This document shows, piece after piece, positions 26,498 to 28,749 of a DNA stretch of 32,000 nucleotides. This DNA is from Nostoc sp. PCC 7120 = FACHB-418 (GTDB taxonomy: Bacteria > Cyanobacteriota > Cyanobacteriia > Cyanobacteriales > Nostocaceae), in NCBI RefSeq assembly GCF_000009705.1, contig NC_003273.1, positions 23,415 through 55,414 on the forward strand. The letters run 5' to 3'. Position numbers and translations under genes: made by a program. The notes beneath the pieces are model-generated. The model searched no databases. It saw only the letters and a program-made list of their open reading frames with translations, and was not told where the DNA came from. Each line of letters begins with the position of its first letter. Within the stretch, counting starts at the first letter, position 1.

Positions 26498-26580
26498 CGG
26501 AAGATGGAGGAATCGAACCCCTGGGTGTTACCCCACCCCGGTTTTCAAGACCGGTTGCCGACCATTTAGCGGCATCTTCC
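26498..26580 (-). tRNA. tRNA-Ser(UGA)
   Basis: Acceptor GGAAGAT/ATCTTCC. Anticodon arm CCGGT-CTTGAAA-ACCGG. Long variable arm. T-loop TTCGATT. The D-arm junction is atypical. 3' flank is CCT. Confidence 0.7.
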
Positions 26581-26586
26581 TTAAGG

Positions 26587-26661
26587 GGTGTCAGACGGGA
26601 CTTGAACCCGTTATGACTGGTTCCACAAACCAGCGCCGCGACCGCTTTGGCTTCAGACACC
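26587..26661 (-). tRNA. tRNA-His(GUG)
   Basis: Extra G-1 opposite C73. Anticodon arm CTGGT-TTGTGGA-ACCAG. T arm ACGGG-TTCAAGT-CCCGT. One acceptor mismatch. Confidence 0.8.
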
Positions 26662-26666
26662 AAAAG

Positions 26667-26740
26667 TGGAATCAAGGGGATTTGAACCCCTAACCTCCCG
26701 CTTGCAAGGCGGACGCTCTAGCCAGTTGAGCTATGACCCC
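26667..26740 (-). tRNA. tRNA-Ala(UGC)
   Basis: GGGGTCA acceptor with G3:U70. Anticodon loop CTTGCAA. A73. Confidence 0.85.
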
Positions 26741-26746
26741 AGACAG

Positions 26747-26818
26747 CAGGAGTGAAGGGACTTGAACCCCTACAAATCGATTTAGAAGATCGATGCCCAT
26801 CCATTAGGCGACACTCCC
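26747..26818 (-). tRNA. tRNA-Arg(UCU)
   Basis: Anticodon arm TCGAT-CTTCTAA-ATCGA. T arm AGGGG-TTCAAGT-CCCTT. Confidence 0.85.
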
Positions 26819-26824
26819 ATAAAT

Positions 26825-26900
26825 TGGTAGCCCTGACAGGATTTGAACCCGCTACATCCTCTTTGTAAGAGAGGCACTCTACCAATTGAGTTACAGGGCT
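26825..26900 (-). tRNA. tRNA-Val(UAC), CCA encoded
   Basis: Acceptor AGCCCTG/CAGGGCT. Anticodon arm CCTCT-CTTACAA-AGAGG. Ends in ACCA. Confidence 0.9.
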
Positions 26901-26905
26901 AAAAG

Positions 26906-26976
26906 AGCGATCGACGAGACTCGAACTCGTACCGTGAGTTTGGAAGACTCTGATGCTGCCGTTACACCACGATCGC
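26906..26976 (-). tRNA. tRNA-Gly(UCC)
   Basis: Acceptor GCGATCG/CGATCGC (a HIP1 palindrome). Anticodon loop CTTCCAA. U73. Confidence 0.85.
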
Positions 26977-26984
26977 ATTATTCA

Positions 26985-27056
26985 AGCTGGTGACAGGAGT
27001 TGAACCCGCAACCGATCGCTTACAAGGCGATTGCTCTGCCGTTGAGCCACACCAGC
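26985..27056 (-). tRNA. tRNA-Thr(UGU)
   Basis: Acceptor GCTGGTG/CACCAGC. Anticodon arm ATCGC-CTTGTAA-GCGAT. Confidence 0.9.
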
Positions 27057-27059
27057 ATT

Positions 27060-27137
27060 TGGTAGCGGAGCCGGGATTTGAACCCGGTACGTGAAGGCTT
27101 ATGAGACCCCAGAGCGCACCATAGCTCTATCTCCGCG
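27060..27137 (-). tRNA. tRNA-Met(CAU), initiator-like acceptor, CCA encoded
   Basis: The 5' CGCGG start gives a C1-U72 mismatch, then A73 and CCA. Anticodon loop CTCATAA. Extra nucleotides at the 8-9 or variable region. Confidence 0.65.
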
Positions 27138-27139
27138 AG

Positions 27140-27213
27140 TACCCCTGACAGGATTTGAACCTGTAGAAAACCCGTTTTAAGCAGGTCATGTCTGCCAATT
27201 GCATCACAGGGGT
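27140..27213 (-). tRNA. tRNA with Leu anticodon UAA but a short variable arm
   Basis: Acceptor ACCCCTG/CAGGGGT, A73. Leu-like D region TGATGCAATTGGCAGACAT. Anticodon arm ACCTG-CTTAAAA-CGGGT. Only a 5-nt variable loop. Confidence 0.7.
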
Positions 27214-27219
27214 AAAATT

Positions 27220-27295
27220 TGGTGGGGTATACAGGAGTCGAACCTGTCTAAGTCGGATTAAAAGTCCGATGCACTTGCCGCTATGCCAATACCCC
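27220..27295 (-). tRNA. tRNA-Lys(UUU), CCA encoded
   Basis: Acceptor GGGGTAT/ATACCCC. Anticodon arm TCGGA-CTTTTAA-TCCGA. Confidence 0.9.
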
Positions 27296-27336
27296 ATACA
27301 CAAGGGCGTTATTTATCCGCTCTGCCAACGACCCAA
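27296..27336 (-). pseudogene. possible tRNA 5'-half remnant
   Basis: GGGTCGTTGGCAGAGCGGATAAAT... has an acceptor/D-arm-like start but no T arm or 3' acceptor strand. Confidence 0.2.
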
Positions 27337-27337
27337 T

Positions 27338-27415
27338 TGGTACTCCCGACAGGAGTTGAAAGAGTAAAAATTTCGTCCCTCAAACGGAAGCGTTTACCAA
27401 TTTCGCCACGGGAGC
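27338..27415 (-). tRNA. tRNA-like, Leu anticodon GAG, short variable arm, disrupted T stem (probable pseudogene)
   Basis: Acceptor GCTCCCG/CGGGAGT, then A and CCA. Anticodon loop TTGAGGG. The 5' T-stem strand ACTCT cannot pair with CCTGT. Confidence 0.45.
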
Positions 27416-27435
27416 ATAGTTAGGCAATTGCCCAG

Positions 27436-27509
27436 TACCCTTGACAGGAGTTGAACCTGCAACAAACCCGGTCTAAGCGGGCTACGTCTGCCAATTGCGT
27501 CACAAGGGC
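27436..27509 (-). tRNA. tRNA with Leu anticodon UAG but a short variable arm
   Basis: Paralogue of 27140-27213. Acceptor GCCCTTG/CAAGGGT, A73. Anticodon arm GCCCG-CTTAGAC-CGGGT. 5-nt variable loop. Confidence 0.7.
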
Positions 27510-27512
27510 AAA

Positions 27513-27589
27513 TGGTCGGGATGGTAGGATTTGAACCTACGACTCCTTGTCCCCAAAACAAGGCTTCTAGACCACTGAATTACATCCCG
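27513..27589 (-). tRNA. tRNA-Pro(UGG), CCA encoded
   Basis: Acceptor CGGGATG/CATCCCG. Anticodon arm CTTGT-TTTGGGG-ACAAG (G37). Confidence 0.9.
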
Positions 27590-27597
27590 ATATTACT

Positions 27598-27675
27598 TGG
27601 TACTCCTGATGGGATTTGAACCCATACACAGACTGTTTTTGAAACAGCCGCCTCTGCCAATTGGGCTACAGGAGT
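27598..27675 (-). tRNA. tRNA with Leu anticodon CAA but a short variable arm, CCA encoded
   Basis: Acceptor ACTCCTG/CAGGAGT, A73. D region GCCCAATTGGCAGAGGC. Anticodon arm GCTGT-TTCAAAA-ACAGT. 5-6 nt variable loop. Confidence 0.7.
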
Positions 27676-27703
27676 ATAATTTGTCTGCTTTATCAAAGCA
27701 GAA

Positions 27704-27778
27704 CTGGGAAGGCAGGAATCGAACCCGCGAGATCCTGAGCCAAAATCAGGTGGCTTTGCCAACGTCGCCTACTTCCCA
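27704..27778 (-). tRNA. tRNA-Gln(UUG)
   Basis: U1:A72 and G73. Anticodon arm CCTGA-TTTTGGC-TCAGG. Confidence 0.85.
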
Positions 27779-27783
27779 ATAAA

Positions 27784-27860
27784 TGGCTGCCGAGGTAGGG
27801 TTTGAACCTACAAACTCCTGTTTCAGAGACAGGTGACTCTACCAATTCGTCTACTCGGCA
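27784..27860 (-). tRNA. tRNA-Gln(CUG), CCA encoded
   Basis: U1:A72 and G73. Anticodon arm CCTGT-CTCTGAA-ACAGG. Confidence 0.85.
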
Positions 27861-27865
27861 ATTAA

Positions 27866-27940
27866 TGGCTGCCCCAGTAAGAGTCGAACTTACAACCTCG
27901 CGGTTAACAGCCGCTTGCTCTGCCATTGAGCTATGGGGCA
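27866..27940 (-). tRNA. tRNA-Asn(GUU), CCA encoded
   Basis: Acceptor TGCCCCA/TGGGGCA, G73. Anticodon loop CTGTTAA. Confidence 0.9.
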
Positions 27941-27949
27941 ATGTGCCAG

Positions 27950-28023
27950 TCCCCCAGATCCGGATTGAACGGATGACCTCCTGTTCTTCAAACAGGCGCT
28001 ACTACCAACTGAGCTACCAGGGG
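27950..28023 (-). tRNA. tRNA-Phe(GAA)
   Basis: Anticodon arm CCTGT-TTGAAGA-ACAGG. T arm ATCCG-TTCAATC-CGGAT. A73. Confidence 0.9.
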
Positions 28024-28028
28024 ATAGG

Positions 28029-28102
28029 CGAGAACGGAGGGACTTGAACCCCCAACCTTCAGGTTCGTAATCTGAGATGCAATCCAGTTACACCACGTTC
28101 TC
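28029..28102 (-). tRNA. tRNA-Arg(ACG)
   Basis: Acceptor GAGAACG/CGTTCTC. Anticodon loop TTACGAA. 3' flank is CCT. Confidence 0.85.
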
Positions 28103-28108
28103 ATAAGG

Positions 28109-28196
28109 CGGAGAGAGAGGGAGTTGAACCCACAGTGAGATGATGAATCTCACGACTGTTTAGCAAACAGCTTGCCCTGCCAATAGCAATCTCTCC
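28109..28196 (-). tRNA. tRNA-Ser(GCU)
   Basis: Acceptor GGAGAGA/TCTCTCC. Anticodon arm GCTGT-TTGCTAA-ACAGT. Long variable arm CGTGAGATTCATCATCTCACTG. Confidence 0.85.
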
Positions 28197-28200
28197 ATAA

Positions 28201-28285
28201 TGGGCCGAGTAGGATTTGAACCTACGAAGCACAGAGGCATCCGTTTTACAGACGGCTTCCTTCAACCGGACTTGGATACCGACCC
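28201..28285 (-). tRNA. tRNA-Tyr(GUA)
   Basis: Anticodon loop CTGTAAA. Long variable arm. T arm GTAGG-TTCAAAT-CCTAC. A73. Confidence 0.85.
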
Positions 28286-28324
28286 AAATCAATGTCCACT
28301 TGATAGAAATACATCTACAAGGGA

Positions 28325-28405
28325 TGGAGTGAAGGGGAATCGAACCCCTATCCAGCAAGCGTCCGTTTGTTGGTTTCGTTGCTGTCGATCACCATTCGTC
28401 ACCCC
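28325..28405 (-). tRNA. tRNA-like gene of undetermined identity (canonical acceptor/T arm, aberrant core)
   Basis: Acceptor GGGGTGA/TCACTCC with G3:U70 and A73. T arm AGGGG-TTCGATT-CCCCT. The centre folds as a shifted D hairpin plus an about 10-bp extended arm with loop AACAAAC. Confidence 0.4.
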
Positions 28406-28411
28406 ATGAGG

Positions 28412-28485
28412 CAGTGCAGACGGGACTCGAACCCGCTAATTACACGCTTGAAAGACGTGCCGCTCGACCACTTCGCTTCTGCACC
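28412..28485 (-). tRNA. tRNA-Glu(UUC)
   Basis: Acceptor GGTGCAG/CTGCACT. Anticodon arm CACGT-CTTTCAA-GCGTG. 3' flank is CCT. Confidence 0.8.
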
Positions 28486-28515
28486 ATGTATGCCGTGTAA
28501 GTTGAAAAGCTGTTG

Positions 28516-28586
28516 ATTCACACACAGGAATTGAACCTGCATAGACTGTTTTCGAGACAGTTGCCTTACCATTAGGCGACCTGGAC
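28516..28586 (-). tRNA. tRNA-like, anticodon CGA, class-I body, unpaired acceptor (probable pseudogene)
   Basis: The D arm (Arg-like TCGCCTAATGG), anticodon arm ACTGT-CTCGAAA-ACAGT and T arm are good. GTCCAGG versus GTGTGAA cannot form an acceptor stem. Confidence 0.4.
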
Positions 28587-28591
28587 ACATT

Positions 28592-28669
28592 TGGAAGCCT
28601 CGACGGGAGTTGCACCCGCTCCTCCGTGCTTGAGAGGCACAGCGACTTATCTTATTTGTCCACAAGGCT
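28592..28669 (-). tRNA. tRNA-like, anticodon CUC (Glu), atypical D and T loops, CCA encoded
   Basis: Acceptor AGCCTTG/CGAGGCT, then T and CCA. Anticodon arm TGTGC-CTCTCAA-GCACG. The D loop lacks GG and the T loop is TGCAACT instead of TTC. Confidence 0.5.
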
Positions 28670-28672
28670 ACA

Positions 28673-28749
28673 CGGGGATGATGGGATTTGAACCCACGGT
28701 ATGAAAGCTCGACAGGCGACTGCTTTAAACCGGACTAAGCTACACCCCC
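28673..28749 (-). tRNA. tRNA-Asp(GUC)-like with weak anticodon stem
   Basis: Acceptor GGGGGTG/CATCCCC, G73. D arm GCTT/AAGC. Anticodon loop CTGTCGA. The anticodon stem has only 2-3 pairs. Confidence 0.55.

What the first reader, a model, noticed from the sequence alone, without database searches (positions are those of the whole stretch)
26498..28749. Dense array of 26 tRNA-like genes between a par locus and an HNH endonuclease gene
Hand folding of the minus strand gives 26 consecutive tRNA-like genes in 2.25 kb. Most are separated by only 3-8 nt. The anticodons cover 17 amino acids, with no Ile, Cys or Trp recognised. The array lies downstream of an HNH gene and a TTGACA-17-TAGTAT promoter-like site. 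It ends just beyond a parA/RHH partition module. A spacer hairpin (tctgcttt/aaagcaga, 27684-27702) interrupts the array. A comparable 20-plus-gene tRNA cluster has been described on a plasmid of Anabaena sp. PCC 7120, so the class is known. The content here, a mix of canonical, paralogous and aberrant members, is worth characterising. It could be a translational-stress or anti-anticodon-nuclease backup set carried on a mobile replicon.
Basis: partly seen in the sequence, partly recalled or inferred. Interest (0 to 1): 0.8.

Follow-up and report, generated by a model that had tools for sequence, protein, structure and literature searches.

The report
Stress-inducible plasmid tRNA operon of Nostoc
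This is a real array of 25 tRNA genes plus one miniature tmRNA-like gene, a close relative of the already studied Anabaena "trn operon" that is switched on when translation is stressed, so the array itself is ordinary, though a few of its members are odd and little described.

Summary
ARAGORN minus-strand tRNA genes in 26585-28750. A 25th, Ser-UGA at 26499-26580, is confirmed by orthology. The 26th unit (28325-28405) is a tmRNA-like gene with no tag-coding part.

The locus is a member of the cyanobacterial long tRNA array family ("L-array", the Anabaena PCC 7120 trn operon). It shares that family's gene order, an upstream HNH gene and a small ORF. Its promoter (TTGACA-17-TAGTAT) is overlaid by TGTAGTAT-type repeats, the published operator of the repressor TrcR. 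Fifty of 79 related loci carry the same arrangement.

The most likely function, by homology, is a normally silent extra tRNA set that is derepressed under translational stress.

This copy is partly eroded:
- A ~243-nt deletion removed the Cys, Met and Trp genes and left a chimeric "CGA" gene with an unpaired acceptor stem.
- Leu-GAG has lost its T stem.

Less ordinary points:
- All four Leu tRNAs lack the long variable arm, and covariation shows this fold is conserved.
- The tmRNA-like RNA keeps an invariant G3:U70. It also occurs alone behind TrcR-type promoters elsewhere.

Verdict: a new member of a known kind, of modest interest.

The parts
29820..29854 (-). Promoter-like site TAGACA-18-TATTAT upstream of the small ORF. 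It is overlaid by TrcR-type boxes (TGTAGTAG, and the palindrome ATAATACA-aga-TGTATTAT). A further ATACTACA box lies at 29792-29799.
   Evidence: The same position in L043 reads ATACTACACTTGTATTAT, one base from the published trcR-promoter motif ATACTACACTTGTATTAC (PMC10272220).
29566..29784 (-). 72-aa ORF of unknown function, conserved directly upstream of the HNH gene.
   Evidence: tblastn finds it upstream of HNH in 78 of 80 related loci, with or without a tRNA array. No Pfam or NCBIfam match.
29511..29545 (-). Terminator-like hairpin (14 pairs followed by a T run) between the small ORF and the HNH start codon.
   Evidence: sequence.
28952..29488 (-). HNH endonuclease gene (178 aa), the conserved upstream partner of cyanobacterial L-arrays.
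   Evidence: Pfam HNH/HNH_5. 2197 homologues at E<=1e-10, with the 120 best listed being 74-94% identical. 50 of 79 loci have an array starting less than 700 nt downstream.
28825..28876 (-). Array promoter. -35 TTGACA at 28859-28864 and -10 TAGTAT at 28836-28841. Four TrcR-type boxes: TGTAGTAT 28869-28876, TGTAATAC 28848-28855, TGTAGTAT 28836-28843 (covers the -10) and TGTAGTGA 28825-28832.
   Evidence: The layout is conserved in about 50 loci. It matches the published description: tandem 9-nt repeats over the -10 and the transcription start, and TGTAGTAT over TAGTAT.
28672..28750 (-). tRNA-Asp(GUC), first gene of the array. Its anticodon stem is weak.
   Evidence: (48.9 bits).
28592..28669 (-). 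tRNA-Glu(CUC), CCA encoded.
   Evidence: (40.6 bits).
28515..28585 (-). Chimeric tRNA-like gene with anticodon CGA. The 5' acceptor strand comes from the Cys-slot gene and is fused to the body of the variable-anticodon slot tRNA. The acceptor stem no longer pairs, so it is probably a pseudogene.
   Evidence: Rfam matches only model positions 10-63.
28410..28485 (-). tRNA-Glu(UUC).
   Evidence: 37.7 bits.
28325..28405 (-). tmRNA-like RNA without a tag-coding part (tRNA-like domain only). Features: acceptor GGGGUGA/UCACUCC with G3:U70, A73, D-loop-like UGGUGAUCGAC, a 5-6 bp arm capped by the invariant GAAACCAACAAACGGACG, and T arm AGGGG-UUCGAUU-CCCCU.
   Evidence: Rfam tmRNA model, ends only. 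About 45 homologues. Covariation.
28200..28286 (-). tRNA-Tyr(GUA), long variable arm.
   Evidence: 48.3 bits.
28107..28196 (-). tRNA-Ser(GCU), long variable arm.
   Evidence: Only the Sec model reports it, at 41.4 bits.
28027..28102 (-). tRNA-Arg(ACG).
   Evidence: 49.8 bits.
27949..28023 (-). tRNA-Phe(GAA).
   Evidence: 52.4 bits.
27866..27940 (-). tRNA-Asn(GUU), CCA encoded.
   Evidence: 64.9 bits.
27784..27860 (-). tRNA-Gln(CUG), CCA encoded.
   Evidence: 62 bits.
27703..27779 (-). tRNA-Gln(UUG).
   Evidence: 49.6 bits.
27684..27702 (-). Spacer hairpin TCTGCTTT-GAT-AAAGCAGA within the 27-nt spacer before Leu-CAA.
27598..27675 (-). tRNA-Leu(CAA) of class I form (5-nt variable loop), A73, CCA encoded.
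   Evidence: (55.9 bits).
27513..27589 (-). tRNA-Pro(UGG), CCA encoded.
   Evidence: 58.4 bits.
27435..27509 (-). tRNA-Leu(UAG) of class I form, A73.
   Evidence: (50.3 bits).
27338..27415 (-). tRNA-Leu(GAG) of class I form with a destroyed T stem (ACTCT/CCTGT where most other loci have ACAGG or GCAGG paired with CCTGT). Probably a pseudogene in this copy.
   Evidence: Rfam 25.3 bits, below the gathering score..
27296..27337 (-). 42-nt spacer that looks like a tRNA fragment (GGGTCGTTGGCAGAGCGG...). A 42-43 nt spacer occupies the same slot in seven other arrays.
27220..27295 (-). tRNA-Lys(UUU), CCA encoded.
   Evidence: 63.7 bits.
27139..27213 (-). tRNA-Leu(UAA) of class I form, A73.
   Evidence: (51.9 bits).
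27060..27137 (-). tRNA with CAU anticodon and an unpaired 1:72 (C.U). Whether it is Met, fMet or Ile2 is unresolved. CCA encoded.
   Evidence: (31.8 bits).
26985..27056 (-). tRNA-Thr(UGU).
   Evidence: 65.7 bits.
26905..26976 (-). tRNA-Gly(UCC).
   Evidence: 54.7 bits.
26825..26900 (-). tRNA-Val(UAC), CCA encoded.
   Evidence: 67.4 bits.
26746..26818 (-). tRNA-Arg(UCU).
   Evidence: 57.3 bits.
26666..26740 (-). tRNA-Ala(UGC), with G3:U70.
   Evidence: (68.1 bits).
26585..26660 (-). tRNA-His(GUG) with encoded G-1 and C73.
   Evidence: (45.9 bits).
26499..26580 (-). tRNA-Ser(UGA), long variable arm, last gene of the array. ARAGORN missed it.
   Evidence: Sec model 41 bits. One base from the L020 Ser-UGA. 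Orthologous to the last gene of 33 other arrays.

Best explanation
The region is one transcription unit of the cyanobacterial long tRNA array family (L-array), of which the Anabaena sp. PCC 7120 trn operon is the studied member. It sits on what is most likely a Nostoc plasmid.

Shown by the sequence:
- A sigma-70-type promoter (TTGACA-17-TAGTAT) lies about 85 nt upstream of the first gene.
- It is followed by 25 tRNA genes and one tmRNA-like gene on one strand, mostly 1-8 nt apart.
- Four TGTAGTAT-type repeats lie on the promoter. Two of them are in tandem over the -10 box and the expected transcription start.
- The small ORF and HNH gene immediately upstream have their own promoter with the same boxes.

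Inferred from the homologous Anabaena system:
- The chromosomally encoded ribbon-helix-helix repressor TrcR sits on these boxes and keeps the array nearly silent.
- When translation is impaired (ribosome-targeting antibiotics, oxidative or nutrient stress), repression is lifted.
- The long transcript is cut into individual tRNAs by the normal tRNA-processing enzymes. CCA is added where it is not encoded; 9 of the 24 ARAGORN-called genes encode it.
- Most of the tRNAs are charged and join the translating pool. This raises tRNA supply and improves survival under prolonged stress.

The HNH protein probably helps the module spread between replicons.

This particular copy is partly eroded. It has lost Cys, Met and Trp to a deletion, and Leu-GAG has lost its T stem.
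For: - Number and density of tRNA genes.
- Nucleotide identity of 83-90% to arrays on 17 Nostocales plasmids.
- HNH protein 100% identical to that of Nostoc parmelioides FACHB-3921 (L003), and array 93% identical to it.
- Same gene order from Asp-GUC to Ser-UGA in about 50 loci. 50 of 79 HNH loci have an array within 700 nt, median 24 genes.
- Promoter and operator alignment conserved across about 50 loci.
- Exact TGTAGTAT occurs five times in the window. Four of these lie within 28836-29799.
- Published properties of the homologue: a single transcript that is processed; induced 100- to 1000-fold by ribosome-targeting antibiotics; 23 of 26 genes charged in vivo; found in polysomes; survival advantage in competition (PMC8421152).
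- HNH upstream and co-regulated, with 9-nt tandem repeats over the -10 and the start site that are sufficient for regulation.
- TrcR binds TGTAGTAT overlapping the TAGTAT -10 box of trn: PMC10272220.
- Compensatory changes show the unusual members are under selection for their fold.
Against: - No expression, processing or charging data exist for this locus.
- The host genome is unknown, so the presence of a TrcR gene in it is assumed. No RHH gene was recognised in the window.
- I could not obtain the Anabaena delta plasmid sequence. Homology to the studied operon therefore rests on published descriptions and on shared relatives, not on a direct alignment.
- The copy shows decay (a chimeric gene and a broken T stem), which fits weak selection.
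- The Anabaena authors found no match between operonic anticodons and the codon usage of stress genes. The operon was also dispensable for recovery of protein synthesis. How the tRNAs help is therefore open even in the model organism.
Confidence: 0.8

Rival explanations
1. Selfish or cryptic cargo. The array and its HNH gene are a horizontally spreading module with no benefit to this host. It is kept silent to avoid harm and is slowly decaying.
For: - Patchy distribution, and many arrays with deletions, duplications and insertions.
- This copy has a ~243-nt deletion chimera and a Leu-GAG gene without a T stem.
- 29 of 79 HNH loci lack an array within 700 nt of the gene; three of those have one starting about 830-860 nt downstream.
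- L-arrays are described as spreading by horizontal transfer, and as expected to be disadvantageous on arrival (PMC8421152).
Against: - The promoter and operator are conserved almost base for base across about 50 loci.
- The odd members show compensatory substitutions that preserve their folds.
- The Anabaena homologue gives a measurable survival advantage under chloramphenicol.
Confidence: 0.1
2. Anti-defence or anti-toxin tRNA reserve. The array exists mainly to replace or shield tRNAs that are cut by anticodon nucleases (toxins or phage-defence enzymes), as has been proposed for phage and mycobacterial arrays.
For: - Mycobacterial arrays are described as putative anti-defence systems (abstract of PMC12803027).
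[quoted passage not shown] The RNA ligase RtcB is co-regulated, and the authors suggest a sponge role.
- One slot tRNA changes its anticodon freely between loci while keeping its body. That would fit a decoy.
Against: - No nuclease or toxin gene was identified next to the array in the window. Only the ORFs were scanned against protein families.
- No phage genes: the phage collection gave only generic matches to single tRNAs.
- Control by a host repressor that answers to translational stress points to host physiology.
- This reading is not exclusive of the best explanation.
Confidence: 0.08
3. Ordinary housekeeping tRNA locus of the main chromosome.
For: Nothing specific. Dense tRNA operons do exist as housekeeping loci in Firmicutes.
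Against: - The set lacks Ile, Cys and Trp.
- All four Leu tRNAs lack the long variable arm.
- Several genes score low on the general tRNA model.
- The neighbours are parA, transposases and a group II intron reverse transcriptase.
- The best matches are Nostocales plasmids.
- In cyanobacteria housekeeping tRNA genes are dispersed.
Confidence: 0.01

Closest known systems
trn operon (L-array) of Anabaena/Nostoc sp. PCC 7120, delta plasmid (Puerto-Galan & Vioque 2012; Santamaria-Gomez et al. 2021, PMC8421152; Wang et al. 2023, PMC10272220)
   Same: - About 26 same-strand tRNA genes and pseudogenes on a plasmid, with Asp-GUC named in the published scheme.
- An HNH gene upstream.
- A -10 box TAGTAT overlapped by TGTAGTAT.
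- Tandem 9-nt repeats over the -10 and the start site, with extra repeats upstream.
- A mix of genes with and without encoded CCA.
- A few pseudogenes.
   Different: - A different strain and replicon.
- This copy lacks Ile, Cys and Trp, whereas the Anabaena operon has at least Ile-GAU.
- It carries a deletion chimera and a broken Leu-GAG.
- No experimental data exist here.
- Direct sequence alignment with the Anabaena operon was not possible.
Arrays on Nostocales plasmids and chromosomes (e.g. Nostoc sp. MS1 pNSMS105, Nostoc parmelioides FACHB-3921, Nostoc sp. PCC 7524, Tolypothrix sp. PCC 7910, Nostoc carneum NIES-2107)
   Same: 83-93% nucleotide identity. Same small ORF, HNH gene, promoter and array order.
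   Different: Individual gains and losses of genes. L003 has 27 genes, including Met and Trp genes, a Cys-slot gene with an eight-base anticodon loop and a CUA tRNA, where the window has the single chimera.
tRNA array units of Mycobacterium/Mycolicibacterium plasmids and mycobacteriophages (Morgado & Vicente 2018, PMC5966550)
   Same: - 20-40 tRNA genes with an HNH endonuclease gene as the most widespread neighbour.
- Some arrays contain a tmRNA gene.
- The HNH of pCBMA213_1 is about 40% identical to the window's and sits inside a 29-tRNA array.
   Different: - Different phylum and different gene order.
- Normal 85-nt Leu tRNAs.
- Full-length tmRNA rather than a version without a tag-coding part.
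- TrcR boxes were not looked for there.
tmRNAs without a tag-coding part: mitochondrial tmRNA of jakobids, two plastid forms of about 65 bp, and the form in mycobacteriophage DS6A (Nawrocki, Petrov & Williams 2025, PMC11915505; Mao et al. 2009 as cited there)
   Same: Only the tRNA-like domain of tmRNA is kept, with no tag reading frame. The element at 28325-28405 has the tmRNA-type 5' end (GGGG...UGG..UCGAC), G3:U70, T arm and A73, and no conserved reading frame.
   Different: - It is found inside cyanobacterial tRNA arrays, or alone behind TrcR-type promoters.
- It carries an invariant 18-nt loop motif that the papers I could read do not describe.
- Whether it is already in the tmRNA database is unknown.
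- The DS6A form inhibits the host tmRNA in E. coli. Nothing is known here.

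Membership tests
tRNA array unit / L-array (Tran et al. 2016; Santamaria-Gomez et al. 2021) | At least 20 tRNA genes at two or more per kb, in the same orientation and close enough to be co-transcribed. | tested here: met
   25 tRNA genes plus one tmRNA-like gene in 2252 bp, all on the minus strand. 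18 of 23 spacers are 1-8 nt. Definition in PMC4758250 (abstract).
Cyanobacterial trn-type L-array | Gene order shared with other cyanobacterial arrays (common ancestry of the central part). | tested here: met
   The same order from Asp-GUC to Ser-UGA is seen in about 50 loci, including genomes named in PMC8421152 Fig. 6. The window is 93% identical to L003 across the array.
Cyanobacterial trn-type L-array | HNH endonuclease gene conserved just upstream, on the same strand. | tested here: met
   HNH at 28952-29488, with the array starting about 200 nt downstream.
Cyanobacterial trn-type L-array | Direct sequence homology to the Anabaena PCC 7120 delta plasmid operon itself. | not tested
   The record is not in the plasmid collection. 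The 2012 description and the 2021 supplements are not held.
TrcR regulon | TrcR box (8-bp consensus, TGTAGTAT in trn) overlapping or next to the -10 box. For trn-type promoters, two tandem repeats spaced by 2-3 nt over the -10 and the transcription start. | tested here: met
   ATGTAGTAT-at-ATGTAGTGA covers TAGTAT and the expected start. Two more boxes lie upstream. Compared.
TrcR regulon | Binding by TrcR and derepression in a trcR mutant or under translational stress. | not testable with these tools
   Needs EMSA or footprinting and expression assays in the host.
Functional tRNAs | Processed, aminoacylated and present in polysomes. | not testable with these tools
   Shown only for the Anabaena operon.
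tRNA-Leu (bacterial) | Long variable arm (class II tRNA). | tested here: not met
   The window's four Leu-anticodon genes are 75-78 nt with 4-5 nt variable loops. All 151 such genes in the related arrays are 72-81 nt, except one with an insertion. Ser and Tyr genes keep long arms.
tRNA-Leu (bacterial) | Discriminator A73. From my own knowledge, this is the main LeuRS identity element in E. coli, where the long arm is not required. | tested here: met
   A73 is invariant in 32 aligned sequences. The cloverleaf is 98.7% paired, and 14 of 20 pairs show compensatory changes.
tmRNA (tRNA-like domain) | Acceptor stem with G3:U70 and A73, a D-loop without a stem (GG..UCGAC-type), a T arm, and helix 2 closing the rest of the molecule. 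| tested here: met
   Rfam aligns both ends to RF00023. G1-C72, G2-C71, G3.U70 and A73 are invariant in 15 distinct sequences. 10 of 17 pairs show compensatory changes, and 0 of 500 shuffles reach the observed values. RNAalifold predicts the same helices.
tmRNA (full) | mRNA-like domain with a tag reading frame and pseudoknots. | tested here: not met
   20 nt replace 312 model positions. The score is below the gathering threshold, and ARAGORN calls no tmRNA. No reading frame with a stop is shared between the sequence types (read).
tmRNA (tRNA-like domain) | Charging with alanine and binding of SmpB. | not testable with these tools
   Needs biochemistry.

The most novel reading that the evidence does not exclude
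The most novel reading concerns two odd units rather than the array itself.

The first is the 81-nt tmRNA-like RNA without a tag-coding part. It has alanine identity (G3:U70) and an invariant GAAACCAACAAACGGACG loop. The second is the neighbouring tRNA whose anticodon changes freely between loci (CUA, UUA, CUU, AUU, AGU, CAA, and CGA here).

Together they may form a selected, TrcR-controlled core that acts on stalled ribosomes during translational stress. For example, they could compete with or modulate tmRNA-SmpB rescue, or read stop codons, rather than simply adding tRNA supply.

In some genomes these two genes, with a tRNA-like fragment between them, make up the whole operon behind a TrcR-type promoter. 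That is why I single them out.

None of the papers I could read describes this. I could not read the 2012 paper that first described the Anabaena cluster.
Probability: 0.3. Interest if true: 0.65.

Novelty: new member of a known kind. Interest (0 to 1): 0.4.

Why it matters
The array itself adds one more example to a family whose regulation and stress role are already worked out in Anabaena. Its main value is correct annotation: a TrcR-controlled auxiliary tRNA operon on a Nostoc plasmid.

The comparative work raised three points that could matter to people studying tRNA identity and ribosome rescue.

1. These arrays carry a complete set of Leu isoacceptors without the long variable arm. The fold is under clear selection. 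This raises the question of how, and with what fidelity, LeuRS charges them.

2. The arrays carry a conserved tmRNA-like RNA with no tag-coding part, which standard tools do not annotate. It also occurs as the first gene of minimal TrcR-type operons.

3. One conserved tRNA body carries many different anticodons, including the stop-codon readers CUA and UUA.

Each point is directly testable in Anabaena or Nostoc with existing genetic tools.

Tried and rejected
- Fetching the Anabaena PCC 7120 delta plasmid by accession failed, as it is not in the collection. So no direct alignment with the studied operon was made.
- Puerto-Galan & Vioque 2012 is not held. The supplements of PMC8421152 are not held. 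Elhai et al. 2008 is not held.
- The phage collection gave only short generic matches to single tRNAs and no phage relative of the array. A phage origin for this window was dropped.
- Pfam and NCBIfam gave nothing for the 72-aa ORF or for the 237-aa ORF after parA.
- I considered whether the 72-aa ORF is TrcR itself, because the trcR-promoter motif lies in front of it in L043. I rejected this on gene names alone. In Anabaena, trcR (all0854) is on the opposite strand from asr0855-alr0856 (HNH). The ORF is therefore more likely the asr0855 counterpart. This is not proven.
- I looked for a tag reading frame in the tmRNA-like RNA. The Nostocales type has an in-frame UAG, but the other types have no stop. 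Rejected (sequences).
- The first alignment of the tmRNA-like RNAs (A2) shifted the acceptor stem of the shorter sequences. It was replaced by an N-padded alignment (A3).
- The 18-mer used for the metagenome scan is expected to hit by chance a few dozen times in a collection of that size (my own estimate). About 44 of the 78 stretches lacked the tmRNA-like context and were discarded.
- I did not pursue the exact acceptor pairing or identity of the variable-anticodon tRNA.

Full report

Yes. ARAGORN finds 24 tRNA genes, all on the minus strand, between 26585 and 28750. Rfam's general tRNA model reaches its gathering score for 20 of them. With relaxed thresholds it also reports Glu-CUC, the CAU gene and Leu-GAG, plus two class II genes through the related Sec model.

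One of those two is a gene ARAGORN missed, at 26499-26580. It has the anticodon loop CUUGAAA (UGA, Ser), a long variable arm and G73. It differs by a single base from the Ser-UGA that ARAGORN calls in locus L020, and it occupies the last slot of the array, as in 33 other loci.

The 26th 'tRNA-like' unit, at 28322-28405, is not a tRNA. It aligns only to the two ends of the tmRNA model.

- 17 amino acids are covered, with no Ile, Cys or Trp.
- 18 of 23 spacers are 1-8 nt.
- The hairpin TCTGCTTT-GAT-AAAGCAGA lies in the spacer before Leu-CAA.
- An HNH gene is at 28952-29488.
- The TTGACA-17-TAGTAT site is at 28864-28836.
- A ParA gene is at 24893-25636.

The 'RHH' partner of parA could not be confirmed.

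**2. What is it?**

A megablast of the array against plasmids hits 17 records, all cyanobacterial and 16 of them Nostocales (Nostoc, Tolypothrix, Calothrix). Identity is 83-90%, the best hit is Nostoc sp. MS1 pNSMS105, and most have an annotated HNH endonuclease alongside. The rest of the window also matches Nostocales plasmids piecewise. It carries parA, transposases and a group II intron reverse transcriptase. The replicon is therefore most likely a Nostoc plasmid, though related arrays also sit on chromosomes.

A scan of one genome per species with the HNH protein found 582 relatives. The best 80 loci are nearly all cyanobacterial. In 50 of 79 loci, an array of at least 5 same-strand tRNA genes starts within 700 nt after the HNH gene. 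The median is 24 genes and the maximum 33.

The gene order is shared. Slots in parentheses are optional:

Asp-GUC, Glu-CUC, (Arg-CCG), Cys, Met, Trp, a slot with a variable anticodon, Glu-UUC, Tyr, Ser-GCU, Arg-ACG, Phe, Asn, Gln-CUG, Gln-UUG, Leu-CAA, Pro, Leu-UAG, Leu-GAG, Lys-UUU, (Lys-CUU), Leu-UAA, Met, Thr, Gly-UCC, (Gly-GCC), Val, Arg-UCU, Ala, His, Ser-UGA.

The window follows this order exactly, apart from the missing Cys/Met/Trp block.

[quoted passage not shown] PCC 7120: Nostoc carneum NIES-2107, Phormidesmis BC1401 and Tolypothrix PCC 7910 (PMC8421152 Fig. 6 legend). The Nostoc PCC 7524 plasmid array, listed by Tran et al. among plasmid-borne arrays alongside Nostoc PCC 7120, is also hit.

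The window is therefore a member of the cyanobacterial L-array (trn) family. The closest relative found is Nostoc parmelioides FACHB-3921, with an identical HNH protein and 93% identity across the array.

**3. Regulation**

Read on the minus strand, the promoter is:

TTGTAGTAT-gccc-TTGACA-cc-TTGTAATAC-att-ATGTAGTAT-at-ATGTAGTGA

Santamaria-Gomez et al. mapped the Anabaena trn promoter. [quoted passage not shown] Extra copies lie upstream. Transplanting the two tandem repeats onto a constitutive tRNA promoter made it stress-inducible. Wang et al. then showed that the ribbon-helix-helix repressor TrcR protects TGTAGTAT, which overlaps the -10 box TAGTAT of trn. Deleting trcR derepresses the operon.

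The window has this layout to the base, and it is conserved in about 50 related loci. Exact TGTAGTAT occurs five times in the window, four of them between 28836 and 29799.

A second promoter-like site with the same kind of boxes (TGTAGTAG, and the palindrome ATAATACA-aga-TGTATTAT) precedes a 72-aa ORF at 29566-29784. That ORF lies just upstream of the HNH gene and is conserved there in 78 of 80 loci. In Anabaena both HNH genes belong to the TrcR regulon: all8564 next to trn, and alr0856 next to trcR and preceded by the short gene asr0855. A strong terminator-like hairpin lies between the small ORF and the HNH start. I cannot say how the HNH gene is expressed past it.

**4. Most likely mechanism**

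Shown here:
- One promoter and one densely packed same-strand array.
- Operator-like repeats on the promoter.
- A conserved small ORF and HNH gene upstream.

Inferred from the Anabaena homologue:
- TrcR keeps the operon nearly silent.
- Ribosome-targeting antibiotics and some other stresses induce it 100- to 1000-fold over about 24 h.
- The transcript is processed to 70-100 nt tRNAs.
- 23 of 26 are charged in vivo and are found in polysomes.
- Strains with the operon survive prolonged chloramphenicol better.

How the tRNAs help is open even there. Codon usage does not explain it, and the authors discuss raising total tRNA levels and acting as sponges for stress-induced RNases. The HNH protein is proposed to promote spread of the array, as SegB does in phage T4.

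**5. State of this copy**

Relative to L003, the window lacks about 243 nt. The break lies inside the gene ARAGORN labels Ser-CGA. That gene has the 5' acceptor strand of the Cys-slot gene joined to the body of the variable-anticodon tRNA. The acceptor stem no longer pairs, and Rfam matches only model positions 10-63. This deletion explains why Cys and Trp, and the first CAU gene, are absent.

Leu-GAG has ACTCT where most other loci have ACAGG or GCAGG, so its T stem is gone and it scores 25.3 bits, below threshold.

A 42-nt fragment sits between Leu-GAG and Lys-UUU, a slot where seven other arrays have a spacer of the same size. Nine of the 24 ARAGORN-called genes encode CCA. The remaining CAU gene has an unpaired 1:72, and its identity is unresolved.

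**6. Unusual members that are conserved, not decayed**

(a) Leu tRNAs without the long arm. All four Leu-anticodon genes are 75-78 nt with a 4-5 nt variable loop. Bacterial tRNA-Leu normally has a long arm.
- Across the related arrays, all 151 Leu-anticodon genes are 72-81 nt, apart from one with an insertion. Ser and Tyr genes keep long arms.
- The actinobacterial array L082 has normal 85-nt Leu genes.
- An alignment of 32 distinct UAA, UAG and CAG sequences fits a class I cloverleaf. 98.7% of cells are paired, 14 of 20 pairs show changes on both sides, and A73 is invariant. No shuffle or slid control comes close.
- A survey paper noted cyanobacterial tRNA-Leu variable loops as short as 5 nt, without comment (PMC6933170).

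(b) The tmRNA-like RNA at 28325-28405. The Rfam alignment shows:
- the tmRNA 5' end (GGGG..UGG..UCGAC);
- a short helix;
- a 20-nt cap in place of 312 model positions;
- the T arm and the acceptor 3' strand.

Near-identical copies occur in eight Nostocales loci, and divergent ones in Leptolyngbya, Phormidesmis and Oculatellaceae arrays.

A metagenome scan with the invariant loop motif GAAAYCAACAAACGGACG returned 78 stretches. About 34 have the full context, most of them inside arrays of the same type.

On 15 distinct sequences:
- G1-C72, G2-C71, G3.U70 and A73 never vary.
- Positions 4-7 of the acceptor stem, the arm and the T stem show compensatory changes (10 of 17 pairs).
- 93.7% of cells are paired, and 0 of 500 shuffles reach the observed values.
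- RNAalifold predicts the same helices on its own.

There is no reading frame with a stop shared between the sequence types. ARAGORN does not call it, and Rfam scores it below threshold, so standard annotation misses it.

In eight low-GC metagenome contigs the RNA stands alone directly behind a TrcR-type promoter. In the five contigs that extend far enough downstream, about 150-200 nt later comes the variable-anticodon tRNA. In L109 it is the first gene after the promoter.

tmRNAs without a tag-coding part are known from mitochondria, two plastids and mycobacteriophage DS6A, where the short form inhibits the host tmRNA in E. coli (PMC11915505). Full tmRNA genes occur in mycobacterial arrays and next to an HNH homologue on a Pseudarthrobacter plasmid. 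The element is thus a new example of a rare known kind.

(c) The variable-anticodon tRNA. One conserved body carries CUA in 10 genome loci. Elsewhere it carries CUU, AUU or CAA. UUA and AGU appear in stand-alone operons, and CGA in the window's chimera. Tran et al. reported no suppressor tRNAs in arrays. Mohanta et al. listed a CUA tRNA in Nostoc PCC 7524, whose plasmid array is among the hits.

**7. Comparison and novelty**

The finding is a new member of a known and experimentally characterised kind. Family membership is supported by density, gene order, the HNH partner and the operator layout. What could not be tested:
- a direct alignment with the Anabaena operon;
- TrcR binding;
- induction;
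- charging.

As a finding about this window it is of modest interest. The conserved oddities in section 6 are the part that might repay follow-up, with one caveat. The 2012 paper that first described the 'unusual' cluster was not available to me, so some of these features may already be described there.

Noticed in passing
Related loci, not the window: L098, L100, L103, L104, L107, L111, L127, L142, L148, L153 (tmRNA-like RNA); L012 (Leu-GAG, 99 nt); L036 (Asp); L041; L077/L079 (gene before the tmRNA-like RNA): A roughly 23-28 nt insertion sits inside the T loop of different array genes. Its sequence is ACCCTNCGGGAAGGCAAAGCCTAC or a variant, it folds as two mini-hairpins, and the insertion point is always the same (GGGGT|...|AATTCCCC). 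It may be one of the very small mobile repeats described for Nostoc by Elhai et al. 2008 (from memory; the paper is not held). It is absent from the window.
   Followed up: partly
L104, L107, L130, L133, L140, L142, L153, L154 (metagenome contigs, GC 0.41-0.42): Minimal operons. A TrcR-type promoter is followed directly by the tmRNA-like RNA. In five of these contigs the sequence read also shows a tRNA-like fragment and then the variable-anticodon tRNA (CUA, UUA or AGU). L130 also has a 56-nt match to 23S rRNA positions 1093-1148 about 3 kb downstream.
   Followed up: partly
window 29566-29784 (-) and 29511-29545 (-): A 72-aa ORF of unknown function is conserved upstream of the HNH gene in 78 of 80 loci. 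A 14-pair terminator-like hairpin follows it, about 20 nt before the HNH start codon. How the HNH gene is transcribed past the hairpin is unclear.
   Followed up: partly
L043-L044, L050, L052, L054-L058, L060, L063-L065 and others: The small ORF and HNH pair also occurs without any tRNA array. 29 of 79 loci have no array within 700 nt (three have one about 830-860 nt downstream). HNH identity is 74-94% among the best matches, which span several cyanobacterial orders. That is unusually conserved for a homing endonuclease. In L043 the trcR-promoter motif lies in front of the small ORF.
   Followed up: partly
window 29295-29455: Further TrcR-like boxes lie inside the 5' part of the HNH coding sequence: ATACTACA...GTAGTAT at 29431-29455, and GTACTACA twice at 29295-29340. 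They could be chance products of Leu-Gln and Val-Val codons.
   Followed up: no
window 22575-24377 (+): Group II intron-type reverse transcriptase/maturase with a C-terminal HNH domain (Pfam RVT_1, GIIM, HNH). It is 89-93% identical at the DNA level to copies on other Nostocales plasmids. No group II intron RNA family reached the Rfam gathering score.
   Followed up: no
window 20767-21465 (-), 31132-31920 (+), about 10936-11955 (-): DDE transposase, a weak MULE-type transposase match, and a region matching tyrosine recombinase genes of Nostoc plasmids. This is a mobile-element-rich context.
   Followed up: no
L084 (Pseudarthrobacter sp. BIM B-2242 plasmid) 3654-4042: A full-length tmRNA gene (tag ANATRSDLALAA) and two tRNA genes lie on a 418-kb plasmid, about 2 kb upstream of an HNH homologue of the window's protein.
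   Followed up: no
L059: A contig with a typical Nostocales small ORF, HNH gene and array is binned as 'uncultured Acetobacteraceae bacterium'. This is probably a binning error in a metagenome assembly.
   Followed up: no
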